Under the pieces are notes generated by a model. That model was not told where the DNA came from. It was given only the letters and a program-made list of their open reading frames with translations, and searched no databases. Position numbers and translations under genes: made by a program. From a virus (taxonomy: Duplodnaviria; Caudoviricetes), in IMG/VR virus record IMGVR_UViG_3300047545_000675, positions 1 through 36,587 of that record: DNA of 36,587 nt. One strand, written 5' to 3'. Shown one piece after another: positions 1,807-30,688 of this stretch (position 1 is its first letter; every line of letters starts with the position of its first letter).

Positions 1807-2234
1807 CAATCGCATCTTCTATCTGGCTATCTCAAAATCAAGGGAGATCATGGGGATGCGAGCAATGTAAATCTAAGCCAGCGCTTAGGGCAATGCGCGG
1901 GAATTGTGGAGGCGCTTTTAAAAAGGGCTTGCCATATTTAGATGAAGACGAGCATGGCTATTTCGTGCCAGCCTATAGGGTGGCGCCTAATTGCAGTGCC
2001 GAGTACGCTGATCTAAAAATAAGGTCTTGCCCTGTGGCTGGTGCTAATAAAGTGGCGCCTATAACGCAAGCCTATTTTAGGCATATCAACGGTCTTTTTG
2101 ATTTAAAAAATGTATATCCTATGCCCTCTTGTGCTATCTTAGAGGCTATTGATATTTTACATCATCACTATCAAGAGCTCAAAAACAAAATCACTCAAGA
2201 GCAAATCGAGGAGGCGCAGAATGGCAGAAAATAA
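1797..2234 (+). CDS. Tail assembly chaperone, frameshifted C-terminal (gpT-like) part
   Basis: The -1 frame reads IAIASSIWLSQNQGRSWGCEQCKSKPALRA and continues into ORF 1893..2234 without a stop. Confidence 0.7.
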   Translation, partial: GKIAIASSIWLSQNQGRSWGCEQCKSKPALRAMRGNCGGAFKKGLPYLDEDEHGYFVPAYRVAPNCSAEYADLKIRSCPVAGANKVAPITQAYFRHINGLFDLKNVYPMPSCAILEAIDILHHHYQELKNKITQEQIEEAQNGRK

Positions 2235-14847: not shown

Positions 14848-14894
14848 ATATTAAATTTGTTTAATAGTCATCCCCTTATTTTCTAGGATGACAC

Positions 14895-16889
14895 ATGGCA
14901 CAAAATAAAATTTTAGGTAAAGTAGCTTTTGCCACACAGTACGCAAAGCTCAAAGCAGATGGCACAAGAGAAAGCTATATCGATGCGATGGATCGAGTCA
15001 AGGCGATGCATGTCGAGAAATTCCCAGCGCTTGAGCAAAGAATTGAACAGGTATTCAAGGATTTTGTATATCCTCAAATTGTATTCCCATCTCAAAGATC
15101 AACGCAATTCGGAGGCGATGCTATCAAGAGAAACAATATGCGTTTATACAATTGTACTGCTTCATATTGCGATAGAGTGCGCTTTTTCGCTGAGGGTTTT
15201 TGGCTTTTGATGTCTGGCTGTGGAGTGGGTTTTTCTATTCAAAGACATCATGTTTTGAGATTACCCAAGTTGATCACAAAGGCGCAAAGAGATGAACGAA
15301 TGTTTAAGATTCATGTCGTGCAAGACTCTATCGAGGGTTGGGCTGATGCCGTCTTTGATCTCATTAAAAGCTACTTGCCATCAGACGACACAGAGGGGCG
15401 CTATGAGATCAATTTTCATTACGACCAAGTGCGACCAGAGGGATCGCCTATTTCTATCGGTGGGGTAGCTCCGGGACCTCAAGTGCTAAAGACGGCTATT
15501 GAAAAAGTTAAATCCATTTTAGATCAAGCGGTCAATGATGGCATCACTCAATTAAGACCCATTCACTGCTTTGATATGTTTATGCATATATCCCATGCTG
15601 CGCTTTTATCCTCAAGGCGCGCCGCCACTATTGCCCTTTTCTCTCCAGATGATGACGAGATGATGAGTGCCAAGACTGGCGATTGGTGGCGTGACAATCC
15701 CCAGCGCGCCTATGCAAATATCAGCGCTCAAATCATCACCAGCGACCTCACAGAAAAAAAAGATGTCTTTGATAAAATTGTTGACACTGCTCGACAATAT
15801 GGGGAACCTGGATTTTTCTTTGCTGGATCGACAGAATACGCTACAAATCCATGCGGTGAAATTGGATTATATCCACAAATACAAGAAGATGACGGCTCTT
15901 GGTCTAGTGGCTGGGCCGTATGCAATCTAAATGAAATTGTTGTGTCAAATTTGAGCAGTGCCACTAGCAAGGCGATGCATGATAGAGCTATTGATGATGA
16001 TGAAGATGCTGATCTAAAGCAAAAACGATTCAATTTTCTAGGTGCGTGTCAAGCTGCTGCTTTTCTAGGTACGCTACAGGCTAGCTATACCCAGACCGGA
16101 TATTTAGGCGATGTCTCAAAGCGCATCATCGAGAGGGATGCACTCATAGGCGTGAGCATGACGGGGATAATGCATGATCCTAAAGTGGTCGAGCATAAAA
16201 ATTTCTTACAGTTGGCTGCATCTTTGATCAGACAAGAGAATGAATTGACCGCTCAAAAGATAGGCATCAATAAAGCTTTGAGATGCACTACTATAAAGCC
16301 TAGTGGTAACTCTAGCACGGTCGCCGGCTGTTGTGCTGGCATACATCCATATCATGCAAGGCACTATATACGCCGTATGAGGATCAATAAAATAAATCCC
16401 ATCTGGCATGAGATTTTAAATAAGTTGCCTCAAGTCTGTGATGATAGCGATAGTCAAGTAGGTATCGTGGCTTTTGCTTGTGAAGCGCCAGATGGTGCGA
16501 TTTTGAGATCAGATATTGACGCGGTGAGCTTTTTAAATAAGGTCAAGTTTTTTCAAGATTACTGGGTAATGGGTGGTAACAATCCGATTGACTCACAAAA
16601 GGGCTTGACTCACAATGTGTCAAATACGTGCACGGTAAAAGATACCGAGTGGGATGCCGTAAAAGATACAATCTGGGAATTGAGAAAATCCGTTAGGGGG
16701 ATCAGTCTTTTATCTGACTATGGTGATACGGTATATAAAAATGCCCCATACGAGGCAGTCGATCCAGATAATGAATTTTATAAAACTTTGCTTGATGCAA
16801 ATTGGGATCGAGTCGATTTTTCACTCGGCGGCTATGTTGAGAATCCACAAGCCGAGCCAGCTTGCGCAGGCGGGGTATGCCTTATCTAG
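14895..16889 (+). CDS. nrdJ: Class II (adenosylcobalamin-dependent, monomeric type) ribonucleotide reductase
   Basis: YNC, TNPCGEI, CNL.E and TTIKPSG motifs, C-terminal CAGGVC; no NrdB/NrdG partner gene. Confidence 0.9.
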   Translation: MAQNKILGKVAFATQYAKLKADGTRESYIDAMDRVKAMHVEKFPALEQRIEQVFKDFVYPQIVFPSQRSTQFGGDAIKRNNMRLYNCTASYCDRVRFFAEGFWLLMSGCGVGFSIQRHHVLRLPKLITKAQRDERMFKIHVVQDSIEGWADAVFDLIKSYLPSDDTEGRYEINFHYDQVRPEGSPISIGGVAPGPQVLKTAIEKVKSILDQAVNDGITQLRPIHCFDMFMHISHAALLSSRRAATIALFSPDDDEMMSAKTGDWWRDNPQRAYANISAQIITSDLTEKKDVFDKIVDTARQYGEPGFFFAGSTEYATNPCGEIGLYPQIQEDDGSWSSGWAVCNLNEIVVSNLSSATSKAMHDRAIDDDEDADLKQKRFNFLGACQAAAFLGTLQASYTQTGYLGDVSKRIIERDALIGVSMTGIMHDPKVVEHKNFLQLAASLIRQENELTAQKIGINKALRCTTIKPSGNSSTVAGCCAGIHPYHARHYIRRMRINKINPIWHEILNKLPQVCDDSDSQVGIVAFACEAPDGAILRSDIDAVSFLNKVKFFQDYWVMGGNNPIDSQKGLTHNVSNTCTVKDTEWDAVKDTIWELRKSVRGISLLSDYGDTVYKNAPYEAVDPDNEFYKTLLDANWDRVDFSLGGYVENPQAEPACAGGVCLI

Positions 16890-17866
16890 ACCAGTTGCAC
16901 ACGACACATCACGCCACCGCTTGAATCAATCTTGCAATTCGTGGCATAAGACTTGATGATGCCTCTTTGTGCCTCTGTCGTAAATTCGATATTTCTATCA
17001 AGTGGCATATCTCGACTATCGCCCATGAAAAATTGATGCACTTCACCAGCCTTGAGCTTGTTGATATGATCGAATTCATCTAGTAGCGCTGCGCTCAATG
17101 CCTTATCCTCTGCATGAGTGAGATCGTCAATGATCTCAACATTTGCCCATGGCTGCATCTCAATAGGCTTTGGCGCTGGTGCTTGTTGTACTTGTGCTTG
17201 TGCTTGTACTGGCTTGATCTCGATAGGTTGAGCTTGAATCACTTGAGGCGCTGGGGTGGCTTTTGCCTTGATAGTGGCTTTTGGTCTATCACTTGACACG
17301 CTAGACTCAAGCTGGCTATCGATGATCTCATTGCGCTCATGCTCTGACAAATCCATGGAATCGGCTAGCTCAACGGCATCATAGCCAGAGATGATATCAG
17401 CAAAGACCTCACGAACAGCCATAGAGCGACAGCGTGCAAAGAGCATCTGTTGGGGCATCTTTTGCCAGACCTGGTTATTTGCTAGCCCCATTTTTTGAGC
17501 CATCTCAATGGTAAATCTGATTGTATGCTTTACATCAGCTTTTTGATCTGCACGCTGGCACTCAATAACGCATTCTTTATCTGTGCTTGATAGAGTCTTA
17601 AAGCTTCTCACTTTGCCAGATGATAGCACTAGACCGAAAAGAGCGTGCGTTTGAAATGCAACTTTGCCTTTAAGGATATGTAAATTTTCGGGTAGCTCTG
17701 CCATAGACCAGCCGAATTTTACGCCATAAGCGAGGTATGCCTTGACAAGTTGTTGAGCTGACCAGCCATCGCTTTTGAGATACTCTGCGAGCTTGATGAT
17801 TTGTTCCATGTTTGCGCTGAGGAGATTGATTTCATCCATTGCAGCTTGTAATTTTTGTAAACTCAT
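16886..17866 (-). CDS. RecT-like single-strand annealing recombinase
   Basis: RFTIEMAQKMGL and WQKMPQQMLFARC...REVFADIISG motifs; Pro/Gln/Ala linker plus a C-terminal domain. Confidence 0.7.
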   Translation of the reverse strand: MSLQKLQAAMDEINLLSANMEQIIKLAEYLKSDGWSAQQLVKAYLAYGVKFGWSMAELPENLHILKGKVAFQTHALFGLVLSSGKVRSFKTLSSTDKECVIECQRADQKADVKHTIRFTIEMAQKMGLANNQVWQKMPQQMLFARCRSMAVREVFADIISGYDAVELADSMDLSEHERNEIIDSQLESSVSSDRPKATIKAKATPAPQVIQAQPIEIKPVQAQAQVQQAPAPKPIEMQPWANVEIIDDLTHAEDKALSAALLDEFDHINKLKAGEVHQFFMGDSRDMPLDRNIEFTTEAQRGIIKSYATNCKIDSSGGVMCRVQLV

Positions 17867-17906
17867 TTTTTATGTCCTTGCGTTTTTGAGTTGTGATTTA
17901 TGTTGT

Positions 17907-18236: not shown

Positions 18237-18285
18237 TTTTTATCCTTGCGTTTTCGGATTTGGTTTTGGTTGATAAGGTAAAATC

Positions 18286-18314
18286 AATTTAGCGCTTTTA
18301 ATTCAATGTGTCAA
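18286..18314 (-). promoter_or_regulatory. Sigma70-type promoter TTGACA-17-TAAATT
   Basis: tgtcaa at 18309-18314 and aattta at 18286-18291, with an AT-rich upstream tract. Confidence 0.65.
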
Positions 18315-20555: not shown

Positions 20556-20588
20556 ACTAAAAATAAACTTTACTCAATAGGATAAATC

Positions 20589-23774: not shown

Positions 23775-23858
23775 ATGACTCAAGACCTAAATGTTAAAGA
23801 TTTAATCATGCTCGTTGCAATGGCAATTCTAACAATAGTCGCGCTCAAGGATAAATAA
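23775..23858 (+). CDS. 27-aa single-pass membrane peptide (not in ORF track)
   Basis: AGGAT RBS; MTQDLNVKDLIMLVAMAILTIVALKDK; its stop is 1 nt before the next ATG. Confidence 0.6.
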   Translation: MTQDLNVKDLIMLVAMAILTIVALKDK

Positions 23859-23859
23859 A

Positions 23860-24066
23860 ATGACCATGAGTGATAAAACAAAATTCGTTAAACAGAAGAC
23901 CGGCATGACCTTAAAAGAGTTAGCCTCTCAAATTGGTTATAGCGATAGGCATATTATTGAAGGACTTAGAGGCAAAACTCAAATAAGTTATAGCTTGGCT
24001 AAAACATTGGCAGAAAAGACGGGCGCTAGCCCCATTTACTTTATGGAGAATCAAGATGATAAATAG
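23860..24066 (+). CDS. Cro/C1-type HTH regulator
   Basis: GMTLKELASQIGYSDRHI...G...IS...A..LA. Confidence 0.8.
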   Translation: MTMSDKTKFVKQKTGMTLKELASQIGYSDRHIIEGLRGKTQISYSLAKTLAEKTGASPIYFMENQDDK

Positions 24067-24587: not shown

Positions 24588-25090
24588 GCAAGATCGACAA
24601 GCTAAAGAAACTCAAGAAGCAGGGCGAAATTTTAGAGGTAGTACAAGCTAAAACAGAGCAAGCTATCTCTCAAGGCCTTAGCGGTGTTGAGCTTAGAAAA
24701 GAGCAAGTGCTTAGTCTTATTGCTGAGGGCAATCGAGAGGGGCAAGCTGCTACGATTGTCGGTCTCAATATTGATACAATCTCACGCTGGAAGAGAGAAG
24801 ATTCAAAATTCGCCATCGAGGTAGAACAAGCAAAGCTGGCATGGCGCTCTCGCTTAGTGCGTACTGTGATCATAGCAGCCGAGACCGATTGGAAAGCCGC
24901 TAAATTCTTGCTTGAGACTCAGTTTAGAGACGAATTCGGGCAACAACAAAAACTAGAAATTGAACAAATTGAAAAACCTAAGTCAATCGTCATTGACATG
25001 ATTGACCAGATACGAGGAACGGAAATTGAAACTCAAAAAGAAACTGCAAGCCCAACCACCCATGAGCCCTTGGATCATCAAGATGACTGA
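24584..25090 (+). CDS. terS: Terminase small subunit
   Basis: AA..VG....TI.RW...D..F HTH and DWKAAKFLLE....DEFG; upstream of TerL. Confidence 0.7.
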   Translation: MSKIDKLKKLKKQGEILEVVQAKTEQAISQGLSGVELRKEQVLSLIAEGNREGQAATIVGLNIDTISRWKREDSKFAIEVEQAKLAWRSRLVRTVIIAAETDWKAAKFLLETQFRDEFGQQQKLEIEQIEKPKSIVIDMIDQIRGTEIETQKETASPTTHEPLDHQDD

Positions 25091-25670
25091 TGGCGATCAT
25101 ATCGATATGGCAGATGATGCCTTTATGGCACTACTCAAAAATATGCTCAAGAAGACTTTTGAGGCTGCGTATGCTGATGATTATTTTACGGCTTTTTATG
25201 AGCTAGTCTATAGATACATGATCGCTAAAGAGACGCAATTTGAGAACAAAGACAGATTTTTTTCATACTTAAAGCGCCTCACACAGATTCATTTTTATCA
25301 TCAGGTTTACAATGGGCATCGACGGGATAAGCGCATGCTTACCGAAAGCCACATGTTTAACAGTACCATCAATAAGCATATACAATCTGGGGCAACAGGT
25401 AGATTTGATAATAGAAATTTGGAGTTTTATAGCCAGCCCATTTTCTCAGATGGGGGCAATGCTGAGAAAAACTTTGCCATTGCCAGCGATCTAGCCATGA
25501 TGCTATCTCGACTATCAGATGACGATAAGCAGTTAATTGATCTAGTATCGCAAGACCTAAAACATAGGGATATTGCCAAGCTCATGGGCTGGAAAGATAA
25601 CACGACTTTTACGCGGATCATGCGCCTAAAGCACAAGCTAAAAGAGATATGGATCGAGGCGTATGCTTAA
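25083..25670 (+). CDS. ECF sigma-70-like transcription factor
   Basis: Region-4-like L..LSDDDKQLI.L.....HRDIAKLMG....T...RI.R.K.KL; region-2-like F..YL segment. Confidence 0.6.
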   Translation: MTDGDHIDMADDAFMALLKNMLKKTFEAAYADDYFTAFYELVYRYMIAKETQFENKDRFFSYLKRLTQIHFYHQVYNGHRRDKRMLTESHMFNSTINKHIQSGATGRFDNRNLEFYSQPIFSDGGNAEKNFAIASDLAMMLSRLSDDDKQLIDLVSQDLKHRDIAKLMGWKDNTTFTRIMRLKHKLKEIWIEAYA

Positions 25671-27644: not shown

Positions 27645-28454
27645 ATGTTTCAAGATAGACCATTGATCGCCTCAGTGTCTGGGGGTAAAGATTCAACCGC
27701 TGTTATGCTTTATCTTAGAGAAAAGGGCATGAATTTTACGCCCGTTTTTTGTGATACAGGTTGGGAACATCCTATAACATACGACTATCTAAGCTATTTA
27801 GAGAAAGCGCTTGATGTCGATATTGTACGAGTGCGAAACGAGAAATATTTTGATACAGATGGGGGGGGCTATGTCTCTCTAGTGAAAAAAGATCGGTTCT
27901 TCCCATCGCAGCAAACGCGCACTTGTACGCTAAGACTCAAAGTTAAACCTATTCAAGATTATCTAGACGACCTTAGAGAGCGCACTAAACTAAAGCCAGT
28001 TAATGCCGTGGGTATACGAAAAGAGGAAAGCAAGGCAAGATCATCGCTAGAAGAGATCGAAGATAAAGACGAAGCCACAATCTGGCGCCCTTTAATTAAC
28101 TGGTCGTTTGATCAAGTAGTCGATATTCACAAGAGACATAACATCAAACCTAATCCACTATATACTCAAGGTTTCTCTAGAGTCGGCTGCTTCCCTTGTA
28201 TTTTTGCTAGAAAAGGCGAGATCAAGATGGCTTTTGAGAGATACCCACAGCGCTTTGATGTGATAAGAGGTCTTGAAAAACATATGCAAGAGTTAACGGG
28301 CGTTGATGATAAATATACTTTTTTTAATAGGGGAAAAATTGATGATGTCATTGACTGGGCTAAGAGCGATCAGCTTGATCTTTTTAGCGAGGAGTACTTG
28401 AGCGGTTGCTTGACTTGGGGGCTCTGTGATAGTGGGGGCAATAACAATAAATAG
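27645..28454 (+). CDS. PAPS-reductase-family (PP-loop) protein
   Basis: SVSGGKDS, DTGWE, CT..LK..P, GIR.EES..R, P.I.W and R.GC.PC motifs. Confidence 0.88.
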   Translation: MFQDRPLIASVSGGKDSTAVMLYLREKGMNFTPVFCDTGWEHPITYDYLSYLEKALDVDIVRVRNEKYFDTDGGGYVSLVKKDRFFPSQQTRTCTLRLKVKPIQDYLDDLRERTKLKPVNAVGIRKEESKARSSLEEIEDKDEATIWRPLINWSFDQVVDIHKRHNIKPNPLYTQGFSRVGCFPCIFARKGEIKMAFERYPQRFDVIRGLEKHMQELTGVDDKYTFFNRGKIDDVIDWAKSDQLDLFSEEYLSGCLTWGLCDSGGNNNK

Positions 28455-29048
28455 CTATTGTAAATTTTTGACATGGCGTTCAAGGCGATCAATGCGATCT
28501 TTGATATCACCATCGCCGACCATGATTTTAACTTGATCTCTCTCGAATTGTTTAAATTCACTTTCAATCGCATCTAGTCTTTTAAGCAAGTCTTTTCTCT
28601 CGATATCGCAAGCGATAGCATGATCTTGAGATTCTTGGTCTCTCTTTTTTTTATCTTTGTAAAAGACCAGTGCAATCAAGATCGCTATCGCCAAAGGTAA
28701 ATTATTACCAGTTATCTTAAGCAATTCTTGAAGCTGATTGATCTCTGGTGGTAACGCTGGCGCTTCGATAGCCGTGTGAGTCACTGGCGCTTGAGATACG
28801 ATAGACGGATATGTGATGAGCATATCTAAATTTAAGGGTAAAGACATATCTAAATCTTTCTCTTGTGGTATATGGACGGGCTCTATTTTAGCTTGTTTTT
28901 TAAATGGCTTTTCAATTTTTTCATCTATTGTATTGAGTACCAGATACGATCCTTCTAAAAATTCACAGTCTTGGGGATCGTATGATTTACCTTCGTACCA
29001 GACACGCCCATCACTCAAGATATAAAATTGCTTTTTGATTATGCACAT
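28455..29048 (-). CDS. Hypothetical membrane protein with C-terminal coiled coil
   Basis: LPLAIAILIALVFY followed by KDKKKR; a lone reverse-strand gene. Confidence 0.6.
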   Translation of the reverse strand: MCIIKKQFYILSDGRVWYEGKSYDPQDCEFLEGSYLVLNTIDEKIEKPFKKQAKIEPVHIPQEKDLDMSLPLNLDMLITYPSIVSQAPVTHTAIEAPALPPEINQLQELLKITGNNLPLAIAILIALVFYKDKKKRDQESQDHAIACDIERKDLLKRLDAIESEFKQFERDQVKIMVGDGDIKDRIDRLERHVKNLQ

Positions 29049-29068
29049 GAAATAAACGCCCTTTGCTT

Positions 29069-29184
29069 TGTGTTAGATTGATGCGTTCTTGTCGTATCCT
29101 TGATTGAGATGATTTCTAGCGATCTTAACGCACACATTGAGTACAAGCCGGCTCTCTTTATCCTTGCAGTTTCTAGGGCTGGCT
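29069..29184 (+). ncRNA. Candidate structured RNA: two stem-loops displaying UAUCCU(UG)
   Basis: Stems 29069-80/29120-32, 29087-94/29101-09 and 29146-55/29175-84 pair on the + strand using G-U wobbles. Expression is not shown. Confidence 0.45.
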
Positions 29185-29284
29185 TCTCTAAATCTTCATT
29201 TATTTGCTTTTTATTTGATTTTCTCTAAATATGCTATCTACAATAATGTTTAATTGCGTATCAAAATGTTTCAAAAGGTAAAAT

Positions 29285-30688
29285 ATGTATCCAGCTATGA
29301 CGCTAAAGACTAAAGGGGAAGAGACTCAATATGTTGATGCTCAACCCATTTACAAAACTTACGGCATACCCGGGACAAATCTTTTATCTGGGTATGTGAG
29401 CGGTAAAGAACAGAATCCACAACTGACGGGGCGTAACTGGGTAATCACTGCTGAGGATATGCTCGCTACTGATCCCATTGTCAAAAGGTCGTGGGCAGTA
29501 GTAAAGCAGACTCTATTATCTGCTAAATGGATTTTCAAGGCTGGTGATGATAGCGATGTAGCCGAGGAATTGGCACGATTCGCAAATGAGGCATACGGCT
29601 TTGATGGGTATAGTGGCATGATGGATATTTCATGGGAAGAACAACTAGGATATCTATTGGAATTTATACCTCAGGGCTGGCGATATGCTGAGGAAATTTA
29701 TTGCGTTGAAAAAGACTCTATCGGGCAAGAAAAAGTATTTTTAAAAAGGTACGCAGATCGTGAGCCATCATCGCATCAAAGATGGCTATCTGCTGACGGT
29801 CGTAATCTTGATGGTGTTATTCAAAACATGGTGGGGGGCGTACAGCCTCAACCTATACCAGCATCAAAACTTTTACTATTGACTTTAAATAAAACCGGAT
29901 CAAATTTTGAAGGCATCGGCTTATTGCGTCCTTGCTGGTGGTGGTGGTCTCAAAAGCAAAGAACGGCAAATTTATTATCTGTTGGCGTTGAGCGCTGGGC
30001 TATCCCTACGCCTGTTGTGGCTGTTGATAGAGAGGTCGCTGAACGATCTGGCTTCACTGATGGGCAACTTAGCGAGATGATCAATGAAGCAGTGCGACAA
30101 GCACAATCTTATATAGCGCAAGAACAATCTTATTTAGTGGAAAATACAGCCGTTAAATTCTCGGCTTTTGGTAGTCAAGCTGGCTTCAATCCAGATGGCG
30201 CGCTTAAGGTTATTCAAGAGTGTGATAATCAAATCTCTCAAGCTTTCATGGCTCAATTTTTGAATCTAGGCATCTCGGACACTGGCGCTAGGTCGGTCGG
30301 TGAAGTGCATTTGTCTGTATTTAGAAGAGCATGTATTAACTTCTTAGATTTAGTAGCATCTGCTATATCAGGACAAGACCGCGCTGGTGGTGGTACAATC
30401 GGGCGTTTAATCAACTTCAATTATGGCAAGATCGAGTCTTCAAAGCTTCCCCGTCTAGTGCATACAGGCCTAGACAATGATGAGCTTACAGATGCCTTAA
30501 ATAGCTTGCCAGCCCTAGTATCAAGTCAACTGCTTACCCCAGACGACAATCTAGAGCGCGCGATAAGACAAAGAATCGGCGCCGGTGAATTACCTATTGA
30601 GGCGGTGCGTACTAGCCAAGACAGACAAGTGGCTCAAAATCCATCTCTTGCTATGGCAGAGAGATTGAGGAGTCTTAGAGATGAGTAA
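29285..30688 (+). CDS. Portal protein (Mu gp29 / DUF935-like)
   Basis: G.GLLRP.WW, ERWAIP, I..CD.QIS.A...Q.L and G..SVGEVH motifs; first gene of the head operon. Confidence 0.85.
   Translation: MYPAMTLKTKGEETQYVDAQPIYKTYGIPGTNLLSGYVSGKEQNPQLTGRNWVITAEDMLATDPIVKRSWAVVKQTLLSAKWIFKAGDDSDVAEELARFANEAYGFDGYSGMMDISWEEQLGYLLEFIPQGWRYAEEIYCVEKDSIGQEKVFLKRYADREPSSHQRWLSADGRNLDGVIQNMVGGVQPQPIPASKLLLLTLNKTGSNFEGIGLLRPCWWWWSQKQRTANLLSVGVERWAIPTPVVAVDREVAERSGFTDGQLSEMINEAVRQAQSYIAQEQSYLVENTAVKFSAFGSQAGFNPDGALKVIQECDNQISQAFMAQFLNLGISDTGARSVGEVHLSVFRRACINFLDLVASAISGQDRAGGGTIGRLINFNYGKIESSKLPRLVHTGLDNDELTDALNSLPALVSSQLLTPDDNLERAIRQRIGAGELPIEAVRTSQDRQVAQNPSLAMAERLRSLRDE

What the first reader, a model, noticed from the sequence alone, without database searches (positions are those of the whole stretch)
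29069..29184. Two-hairpin non-coding element whose loops are antisense to the phage's own ribosome-binding sites
Seen: the largest intergenic gap folds by hand into two modules with the same layout, stem - TATCCTTG - TTTCTAG - stem. Module 1 has a 12-bp outer stem (29069-80/29120-32, one bulge) and an inner stem closing the loop UAUCCU (29095-29100). Module 2 has a 10-bp stem (29146-55/29175-84) around UUUAUCCUUGC. Apart from two single-base bulges, every non-Watson-Crick position is G-U on the + strand (7 in total), which points to RNA-level structure on that strand. Loop 2 is complementary over 11 nt to the RBS of the 18236 early gene (18239-18249), 10 nt to the RBS of the HTH gene at 23860 (23846-23855), and 8 nt to the initiator RBS (20579-20586). 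Loop 1 (GUAUCCU) complements the AGGAUAC RBS of genes 13331 and 13708. Inference: a multi-target anti-SD sRNA, or a late-transcript element, that shuts down early or host translation, conceptually like the C-rich loops of S. aureus RNAIII/RsaE. Alternative: read on the minus strand, the CAAGGAU motifs resemble CsrA/RsmA sites, but the stems pair worse there.
Basis: partly seen in the sequence, partly recalled or inferred. Interest (0 to 1): 0.78.

Follow-up and report, generated by a model that had tools for sequence, protein, structure and literature searches.

The report
Phage RNA mirroring recombinase-operon start sites
Just before its portal gene this uncultured phage has a promoter-like motif and two predicted RNA hairpins whose main loop is complementary to the ribosome-binding sites of its own recT recombinase operon, a match that changes in step with those sites in related phages, so it likely makes a small RNA that turns these early genes down, though no such RNA has been detected.

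Summary
The stems, the 7 G-U pairs and the listed complementarities are in the sequence, but the region folds no better than shuffles (z -0.96). Relatives show what is real. Hairpins persist with changed stem sequences, folding better on + in 21 of 22 loci. The predicted RNA's best targets among 41 curated gene starts are gene 18236 and recT, not ribosome-binding sites in general. Across 7 near lineages each RNA fits its own recT-operon starts better than others' (permutation P=0.0004; control genes P=0.21). A distant clade shows the same with a differently placed hairpin (P=0.0002; controls 0.81). The 13331/13708 matches are chance-level; CsrA is rejected; host shut-off is untested. Against: no transcript evidence, a neutral wobble test, one lineage without a target, the hairpin deleted in two loci. 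Verdict: likely trans-acting antisense RNA against the early recombination operon, working like P1 c4 but not a member. This scan has reported similar hairpins on other phage DNA.

The parts
29048..29075 (+). Promoter-like bipartite motif (GAAA.AA at 29049-55, GTGTTA at 29070-75); inferred promoter of the RNA; overlaps the start codon of the divergent gene 28455-29048
   Evidence: Fixed 23-nt spacing with variable filler in 18 of 18 two-module loci examined; invariant columns in alignment A3; same motif before module arrays elsewhere in G002, G004, G009. Promoter activity not shown.
29082..29192 (+). Predicted small RNA of about 110 nt (both ends inferred)
   Evidence: 5' end inferred from stems and target-pairing segments that begin 6-7 nt after the motif in relatives; 3' end taken just past the last stem; no reads show the ends.
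29082..29132 (+). Module 1: closing stem 29082-87/29127-32 plus 29091-94/29120-23, around a weakly structured U/G-rich loop
   Evidence: Probability 1.0 if the RNA starts at 29082; this arm pairs at -9 to -14 kcal/mol in every lineage; consensus folds.
29069..29132 (+).
   Evidence: -12 to -14 kcal/mol in window-like strains, including variants L004/L007, but -2 to -6 in L010/L012, L016-L022 and L024/L027.
29139..29188 (+). Module 2: 11-pair stem 29145-55/29175-85 with a 3-pair extension, closing a 19-nt open loop 29156-74
   Evidence: one double-sided and one single-sided change among 7 close loci; 3 double-sided changes among 4 loci of the next lineage.
29157..29174 (+). Loop-2 seed region: 29157-67 plus 29170-73 match the gene-18236 start; 29161-72 match the recT start; 29163-74 match the sigma-like gene
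18239..18255 (-). Predicted target 1: ribosome-binding site of gene 18236, first gene of the recT operon (15 of 17 positions pair)
   Evidence: Rank 1 of 41 curated starts, -14.6 kcal/mol after opening costs; second of 2419 genome-wide windows.
17875..17885 (-). Predicted target 2: ribosome-binding site of the RecT-like annealing protein gene (16886-17866)
   Evidence: Rank 2 of 41, -12.2; -15.5 in strain L009/L310, where the site carries the full 11-nt match; PHROG RecT-like.
25039..25050 (+). Possible target 3: perfect 12-nt match, in codons 5-9 of the sigma-like gene if it starts at TTG 25026 (start inferred)
   Evidence: Best of 2419 genome-wide windows, -17.0; 12 of 12 in the 8 distinct homologous stretches found, but in a stretch constrained by two overlapping frames; the G001 RNA also matches its sigma gene's ribosome-binding site.
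18286..18314 (-). Sigma-70 consensus promoter ahead of gene 18236-recT (early class, inferred)
   Evidence: Perfect -35 hexamer, 17-nt spacer, AT-rich upstream.
23846..23855 (+). Ribosome-binding site of HTH gene 23860: secondary candidate target
   Evidence: 10-nt exact match, but rank 10 of 41 after opening costs; the positional equivalent is a top-4 target in G001 and G021.
20579..20586 (+). Ribosome-binding site of gene 20589 (presumed initiator): weak candidate target
   Evidence: Rank 8 of 41.
29215..29244 (+). Sigma-70-like site for the portal operon, downstream of the RNA
   Evidence: 9 of 12 consensus match, no more sites than in shuffles; similar sites seen at this place in relatives.

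Best explanation
The gap before the portal gene likely encodes a separate + strand RNA of about 110 nt whose open loop 2 is complementary to the ribosome-binding sites of the phage's own recT operon and would pair with them in trans to damp their translation. Shown: the stems, the open loop, the fixed-spacing upstream motif, the complementarity, and its lineage-by-lineage co-variation with recT-operon starts. Inferred: that the motif is a promoter and the RNA starts near 29082; that pairing occurs in the cell and blocks ribosome loading; and the timing. I commit to a delayed switch-off: the recT operon has a sigma-70 consensus promoter (early), the RNA has a different motif, so it would accumulate later and shut down recombination functions as packaging starts. 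The closing stems would protect the ends and keep the seed exposed. The sigma-like gene and the first rightward gene are possible further targets.
For: Rank 1 and 2 of 41 starts for gene 18236 and recT. A recT-operon gene ranks first or second among the genome's own starts in 7 of 8 genomes tested. 7-lineage matrix: own -12.4 against cross -7.6 kcal/mol, P=0.0004; shuffles outside the stems reach the observed energy in 0 of 40 for window, L407 and G004 and 1 of 40 for G002 and G006; control genes P=0.21. Distant clade: 17 of 20 distinct junction regions match their own recT start by 8-14 nt on one strand, an 18th by 13 nt on the other; collapsed to 7 types, 10.9 against 7.2 nt, P=0.0002, controls P=0.81; a one-base change in the loop mirrored in the DnaC-like loader's start between L360 and L363. 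+ strand folds better in 21 of 22 loci; 46 G-U against 15 A-C mismatches on the U-rich strand of 63 intergenic stems, 62 against 61 in 128 others. Double-sided stem changes.
Against: No strand, start, end or level of RNA seen: all RNA runs are contigs. Whole-region folding is not better than shuffles. The wobble-direction test is neutral, 14 G-U-compatible against 15 incompatible flanking transitions, so pairing is not told apart from a same-strand copied tag by that test. G010 has no recT-operon target, and G001 and G010 are not beyond shuffles (7 and 5 of 40). In L026/L312 the loops equal the window's but the gene-18236 match is lost (-4.9). L010/L012 lack the anti-SD core of loop 2 and their targets could not be checked. 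L062/L080 have deleted the hairpin. Only 6 of 40 loops tested alone beat shuffles on own gene starts. The target set was chosen after seeing the window's hits, gene starts in relatives come from my own simple caller, and lineages share mosaic segments (G002, G006, G010 have the same recT leader), so the P values are optimistic. The distant-clade hairpin lies at another locus and is an analogue, not a shown homologue.
Confidence: 0.62

Rival explanations
1. The shared words are same-strand tags read by a phage or host protein: the minus-strand leader of gene 28455-29048 (or the DNA) carries copies of the early-gene tag as a decoy or co-regulated site, with no RNA-RNA pairing.
For: Neutral wobble test; the matched words lie on the same (minus) strand as gene 18236 and recT; in L395 the tag-matching strand is reversed.
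Against: Stems fold on the other strand; the tag differs wholly between lineages and some have no GGA, which a protein would have to track but base pairing accommodates; tags sit at internal genes of operons.
Confidence: 0.14
2. The hairpins are terminators or insulators that stop read-through from the terminase operon before the portal promoter; U-rich loops match A/C-rich early leaders only through composition.
For: Position right before the portal promoter; U-tracts follow the stem in several relatives; distant-clade hairpins end an operon; hairpin lost in L062/L080.
Against: No terminator call in the window and no U-tract directly after module 2; composition-keeping shuffles and control genes do not reproduce the own-genome match; loops of 13-40 nt and an upstream fixed-spacing motif are not needed by a terminator. 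A terminator role can coexist with the antisense role.
Confidence: 0.12
3. A general anti-Shine-Dalgarno RNA that mainly shuts down host translation, like RNAIII/RsaE C-rich loops; phage matches follow from the host's SD preference.
For: Both window loops hold an anti-SD core; the same core is in module 1 of G001/G021.
Against: Most of the phage's own SD-bearing genes rank low; G002, G004, G006 pair outside any SD core; the core is not conserved. Host targets could not be scored: no prophage or host found.
Confidence: 0.08
4. Minus-strand CsrA/RsmA sites in the leader of gene 28455-29048.
For: Two CAAGGA words on the minus strand of the window (sequence).
Against: Minus strand folds worse than shuffles; the words are absent from loop 2 of L010/L012 and from most single-hairpin lineages.
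Confidence: 0.02

Closest known systems
c4 antisense RNA of phages P1/P7 (Rfam RF01695)
   Same: Phage-encoded, about 77 nt, acts in trans by pairing of loop sequences around a ribosome-binding site of the phage's own mRNA (passages of PMC12197685).
   Different: No Rfam match; here two simple stems, not the c4 fold; target is the recT operon rather than an antirepressor mRNA; no ant gene recognised in the window; RNase P processing of c4 seen only as a reference title and not tested here.
P4 CI RNA; P22 sar; lambda OOP
   Same: Small phage RNAs that repress phage genes by base pairing (sar and OOP: passages of PMC12197685; CI: recalled, search returned nothing relevant).
   Different: These serve lysogeny or immunity and pair with overlapping or same-operon targets; here RNA and targets are 11 kb apart, several genes are hit, and the window has no recognised integrase.
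S. aureus RNAIII / RsaE C-rich loop sRNAs (recalled)
   Same: Unpaired pyrimidine-rich loop complementary to ribosome-binding sites of several mRNAs.
   Different: No conserved C-rich motif here; the seed follows each phage's private start sequence; no Rfam match.
Start-associated sequences of Cluster K mycobacteriophages
   Same: [quoted passage not shown]
   Different: Different sequence and hosts; in the passages seen no antisense RNA is proposed; here the tag marks only a few genes.

Membership tests
c4 antisense RNA (RF01695 and relatives) | Match to the covariance model | tested here: not met
   No hit at gathering score in the window, at E<=10 in 28900-29400, or at E<=5 in 12 module regions of relatives.
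c4 antisense RNA (RF01695 and relatives) | Targets an antirepressor (ant) mRNA | tested here: not met
   No antirepressor family among 44 proteins; top targets are recT-operon genes.
c4 antisense RNA (RF01695 and relatives) | Pairing sequences displayed in loops and complementary to own-phage ribosome-binding regions | tested here: met
   (computational only).
c4 antisense RNA (RF01695 and relatives) | Processed from a precursor by RNase P | not testable with these tools
   No RNA ends available.
Trans-encoded base-pairing small RNA (functional class) | Discrete transcript with its own start and end | tested here: inconclusive
   Fixed-spacing motif; RNA libraries hold contigs over the region but give no strand or ends.
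Trans-encoded base-pairing small RNA (functional class) | Accessible seed that co-varies with distant targets | tested here: met
   not met in G010, weak in G001.
Trans-encoded base-pairing small RNA (functional class) | Repression of target translation | not testable with these tools
   Needs reporters.
RNAIII/RsaE-type C-rich loop sRNA | Conserved C-rich anti-SD loop motif | tested here: not met
   Loop core not conserved across lineages; feature recalled from my own knowledge.
CsrA/RsmA-binding RNA | Several conserved GGA motifs in hairpin loops on the folding strand | tested here: not met
   GGA words are on the worse-folding strand and are not conserved.
Intrinsic terminator | Short-loop GC stem followed at once by a U-tract | tested here: not met
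   None called in 28300-29500; 19-nt loop; U-tracts do follow the stem in some relatives.
tRNA/tmRNA-like | ARAGORN call | tested here: not met
   0 genes in 33 loci of relatives; the window itself was covered by Rfam only.

The most novel reading that the evidence does not exclude
This phage family runs a private, self-addressed RNA switch: each lineage marks the starts of its recT operon (and helicase loader or sigma factor) with its own sequence tag and keeps a separately encoded hairpin RNA whose seed tracks that tag, and has rebuilt the RNA at different loci and from different segments (loop, 5' tail, 5' arm). It would be an RNA-timed early-to-late switch for recombination, also able to tell kin from co-infecting relatives.
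Probability: 0.35. Interest if true: 0.82.

Novelty: new variant of a known kind. Interest (0 to 1): 0.62.

Why it matters
Known phage antisense RNAs mostly control lysogeny through one overlapping or neighbouring target. A trans-acting RNA that co-evolves with the starts of a recombination operon across a large uncultured phage family would add a post-transcriptional layer to the timing of phage development. It also supplies natural orthogonal RNA-target pairs, so the idea is directly testable with reporters in a laboratory strain without the unknown host.

Tried and rejected
Rfam and ARAGORN: nothing. Host or prophage search in species genomes with portal and capsid: none; cultured phages only 21-26% identical; host unknown. 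An alignment query was too divergent to scan. RNA runs: contigs only, covering the gap at depth 3-40 in some runs, no strand, no common ends; taken as no evidence either way. A first genome-wide count of stems after GTGTTW sites showed no enrichment at the strict threshold (at most 6% of 68 intergenic against at most 5% of 208 coding sites); only the -35 TTG at 15 and 17 nt stood out, so the promoter claim rests on the orthologous loci. Loop-only exact-match test on 40 modules: no general effect; long-loop modules have no own-genome targets. Wobble-direction test: neutral. Integron attC (core sites in the wrong order), bridge RNA, retron and TIGR arrays (no partner protein among 44 genes; families recalled) and MITEs (stems differ wholly between modules) were considered and dropped. 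The idea that the phage's sigma-like protein reads the promoter is weakened: the motif also occurs in L407, G002, G004 and G009, where no homologue was found. No look-alike earlier finding by place or sequence.

Full report
Setting. The window is a complete 36.6-kb virus record with direct terminal repeats, a tailed phage by its genes: portal 29285, terminase, RecT-like protein 16886-17866, DnaB, ThyX, ribonucleotide reductase, a sigma-like protein (Pfam region-4 hit below cut-off; sigma-like by language-model features), no recognised integrase. The 236-nt gap lies between a divergent gene of no known family (28455-29048) and the portal. No host was found. Contigs 90-99% alike occur in freshwater and aquatic RNA libraries. 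My notes call the distant clade 'marine'; that was a working label and no call established it.

Observation. Alone they are weak. The region folds at z -0.96; the gap has 45 antisense matches of 10 nt or more elsewhere in the window; loop 1 is at chance level against 43 starts and loop 2 is marginal. No Rfam family matches.

Structure in relatives. A portal query gave 80 loci at 72-100% identity; 13 had too little upstream DNA and the other 67 gave 48 distinct regions. Lineages with about 78% portal identity or more have two (some three) stem-loop modules; those at 72-74% have one hairpin. Stem sequences differ wholly between lineages. Of 22 representatives folded, 21 fold better on the + strand; single-hairpin lineages reach z -2.0 to -4.8, two-module ones -0.4 to -2.4, and L062 has lost the hairpin. 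Within lineages, module 2 shows 1 double-sided change among 7 loci and 3 among 4; the two-sequence alignment misplaces module 2 and supports only module 1. Over all loci then held, 63 distinct intergenic stems with U-rich loops have 46 G-U against 15 A-C mismatches on the U-rich strand, against 62 and 61 for 128 other stems (sequences are not independent).

Promoter and 5' end. In 18 of 18 two-module loci examined (about five lineages), GAAA.AA is followed by GTT exactly 23 nt later while the filler varies; in the window these are 29049-55 and 29072-74. The same motif precedes other module arrays in G002, G004 and G009. I infer a promoter and a start near 29082 (29086 if read as an extended -10). 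Which sigma factor reads it is open. A genome-wide count did not show stems enriched after GTGTTW in general.

Targets. With opening costs included, the predicted RNA pairs best with gene 18236 (-14.6 kcal/mol) and recT (-12.2) among 41 curated starts; 20589 ranks 8, 23860 ranks 10, 13708 ranks 12, 13331 ranks 39. Among 2419 genome-wide windows the gene-18236 site is second and recT is within the first ten distinct sites; first is a perfect 12-nt match at 25039-50, early in the sigma-like gene if it starts at TTG 25026. Gene 18236 and recT follow a sigma-70 consensus promoter. In relatives with both regions on one contig, a recT-operon gene ranks first or second among own starts in 7 of 8 genomes (only 16 starts for L407): through loop 1 in L407, the 5' arm in G001/G021 (10 + 8 pairs), the 5' tail in G002 and G004, the loop in G006; G010 shows none. 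The 7-lineage matrix gives own -12.4 against cross -7.6, P=0.0004; the own genome is best in 5 of 7 rows; shuffles outside the stems match the observed value in 0, 0, 7, 1, 1, 0 and 5 of 40 for window, L407, G001, G002, G006, G004, G010. Control genes give -7.6 against -7.0, P=0.21. Among window-like strains recT keeps or improves the match (-15.5, -11.6) while gene 18236 loses it in L026/L312, so recT is the steadier target.

Distant clade. A portal at 63% identity led to 80 more loci and, through RecT, 42 loci. There a 12-18-pair hairpin lies at the convergent junction between the ThyX/dCMP-deaminase (or holin-like) operon and the initiator-DnaC operon. 21 of 42 loci have such a gap of 30 nt or more, 20 distinct; 17 match their own recT start by 8-14 nt on the RecT strand, L395 by 13 nt on the other strand, L372 and L375 not at all. 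Collapsed to 7 types: 10.9 against 7.2 nt, P=0.0002; control genes 7.1 against 7.5, P=0.81. L360 and L363 differ by one loop base, mirrored in their DnaC-like starts. This is the same logic at another locus, not a shown homologue. The long-loop modules before the portal in that clade have no own-genome target.

Against. No transcript, strand or end was seen. Flanking transitions are 14 G-U-compatible against 15 not, so this test cannot exclude a same-strand tag. The target set was chosen after the first hits, starts in relatives come from a simple caller of mine, RNA boundaries were set by the motif rule, and lineages share mosaic segments, so the P values are optimistic. One lineage has no target and two loci lack the hairpin.

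Mechanism. Most likely (0.62) a stand-alone, stem-closed RNA whose open seed pairs over the ribosome-binding sites of the recT operon and lowers their translation after the early phase. Complementarity and co-variation are shown; transcription, pairing, repression and timing are inferred. Rivals: protein-read tag 0.14, terminator with compositional matches 0.12, general anti-SD host shut-off 0.08, CsrA 0.02.

Known kinds. It works like P1/P7 c4 RNA but fails membership (no model match, no antirepressor target). Papers seen: PMC12197685, first 10,000 characters and passages; PMC10690425, PMC2864571, PMC3203893, PMC11143913, passages only; other papers only as search listings. Eight full-text searches showed no phage RNA co-varying with recombinase-operon starts; the library is partial and the supplement of PMC10690425 was not opened. 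RNAIII, RsaE, P4 CI and CsrA features are recalled. The scan's own notes list several anti-ribosome-site hairpins in other phage genomes; they are unchecked here and are not counted as support, but they mean the theme is not unique to this family.

Verdict. A real, conserved element; new variant of a known kind; interest 0.62.

Noticed in passing
L208:4052-4283, L204:9258-9924, L211:11890-12090, L218:4670-4850, L214:1-125: Tandem arrays of stem-closed modules with 31-54-nt loops, some with repeated identical stems and 42-43-nt loops, beside a GIY-YIG (SegE-like) nuclease gene and behind the same promoter-like motif. No Rfam match and no own-genome gene-start target. Could be a homing nuclease next to an RNA cluster or a nuclease with RNA partners; absent from the window.
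   Followed up: partly
L201:15843-15924, L205:117-190, L220:783-856, L339:924-1005, L347:14270-14346: One long-loop module with a shared GTAG-containing motif sits before the portal in one lineage and after an HTH gene in another; 9 viral contigs carry its core.
   Followed up: partly
L320:3793-3887, L321:15374-15474, L323:12129-12221, L325:13442-13545, L327:6778-6878, L330:15763-15853: Distant-clade pre-portal RNAs of about 90-110 nt on the minus strand: 12-17-pair closing stem, long U-rich loop with a conserved GAGAGTAG word and a second short word, sigma-70-like promoter ending at the stem and a U-tract behind it. A separate candidate RNA family with unknown, possibly host, target.
   Followed up: partly
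window 14848-14894 (+): The ribonucleotide reductase leader has a GTTT motif followed by a hairpin that hides the ribosome-binding site; the layout recurs in G001, G003, G004, G021, G022. It scored no accessible pairing with the RNA.
   Followed up: partly
window 1810-1861 (+): Conserved 10-12-pair stem just after the stop of gene 1294-1806, with G-U on the coding strand in relatives; position fits a tail-assembly-chaperone frameshift signal (recalled).
   Followed up: no
L062 and L080, upstream of the portal: The hairpin is deleted between two short direct repeats; real loss or assembly collapse.
   Followed up: no
window 25002-25670 (+): Sigma-like gene probably starts at TTG 25026 inside the small terminase gene; two paralogues in G001/G021, a 53% identical allele in L009, none found in L407 or the 72% lineages.
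   Followed up: partly
window 27645-28454 (+): The PAPS-reductase-family gene is a variable insert: contigs in runs X1 and X12 skip it exactly, and relatives carry methyltransferase or resolvase genes in this slot.
   Followed up: no
L208:11004-11040, L217:10020-10056: A leader hairpin before an HTH gene shares its arm sequence with the pre-portal hairpin of the same genomes (10-12 nt), a possible second, activating or competing interaction.
   Followed up: no
window 28455-29048 (-): Divergent 197-aa gene conserved in all near lineages, with a hydrophobic stretch and a likely coiled-coil end; no Pfam or PHROG family here, some homologues carry PF28533. Its start codon overlaps the RNA's promoter-like motif, so the two may interfere.
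   Followed up: partly
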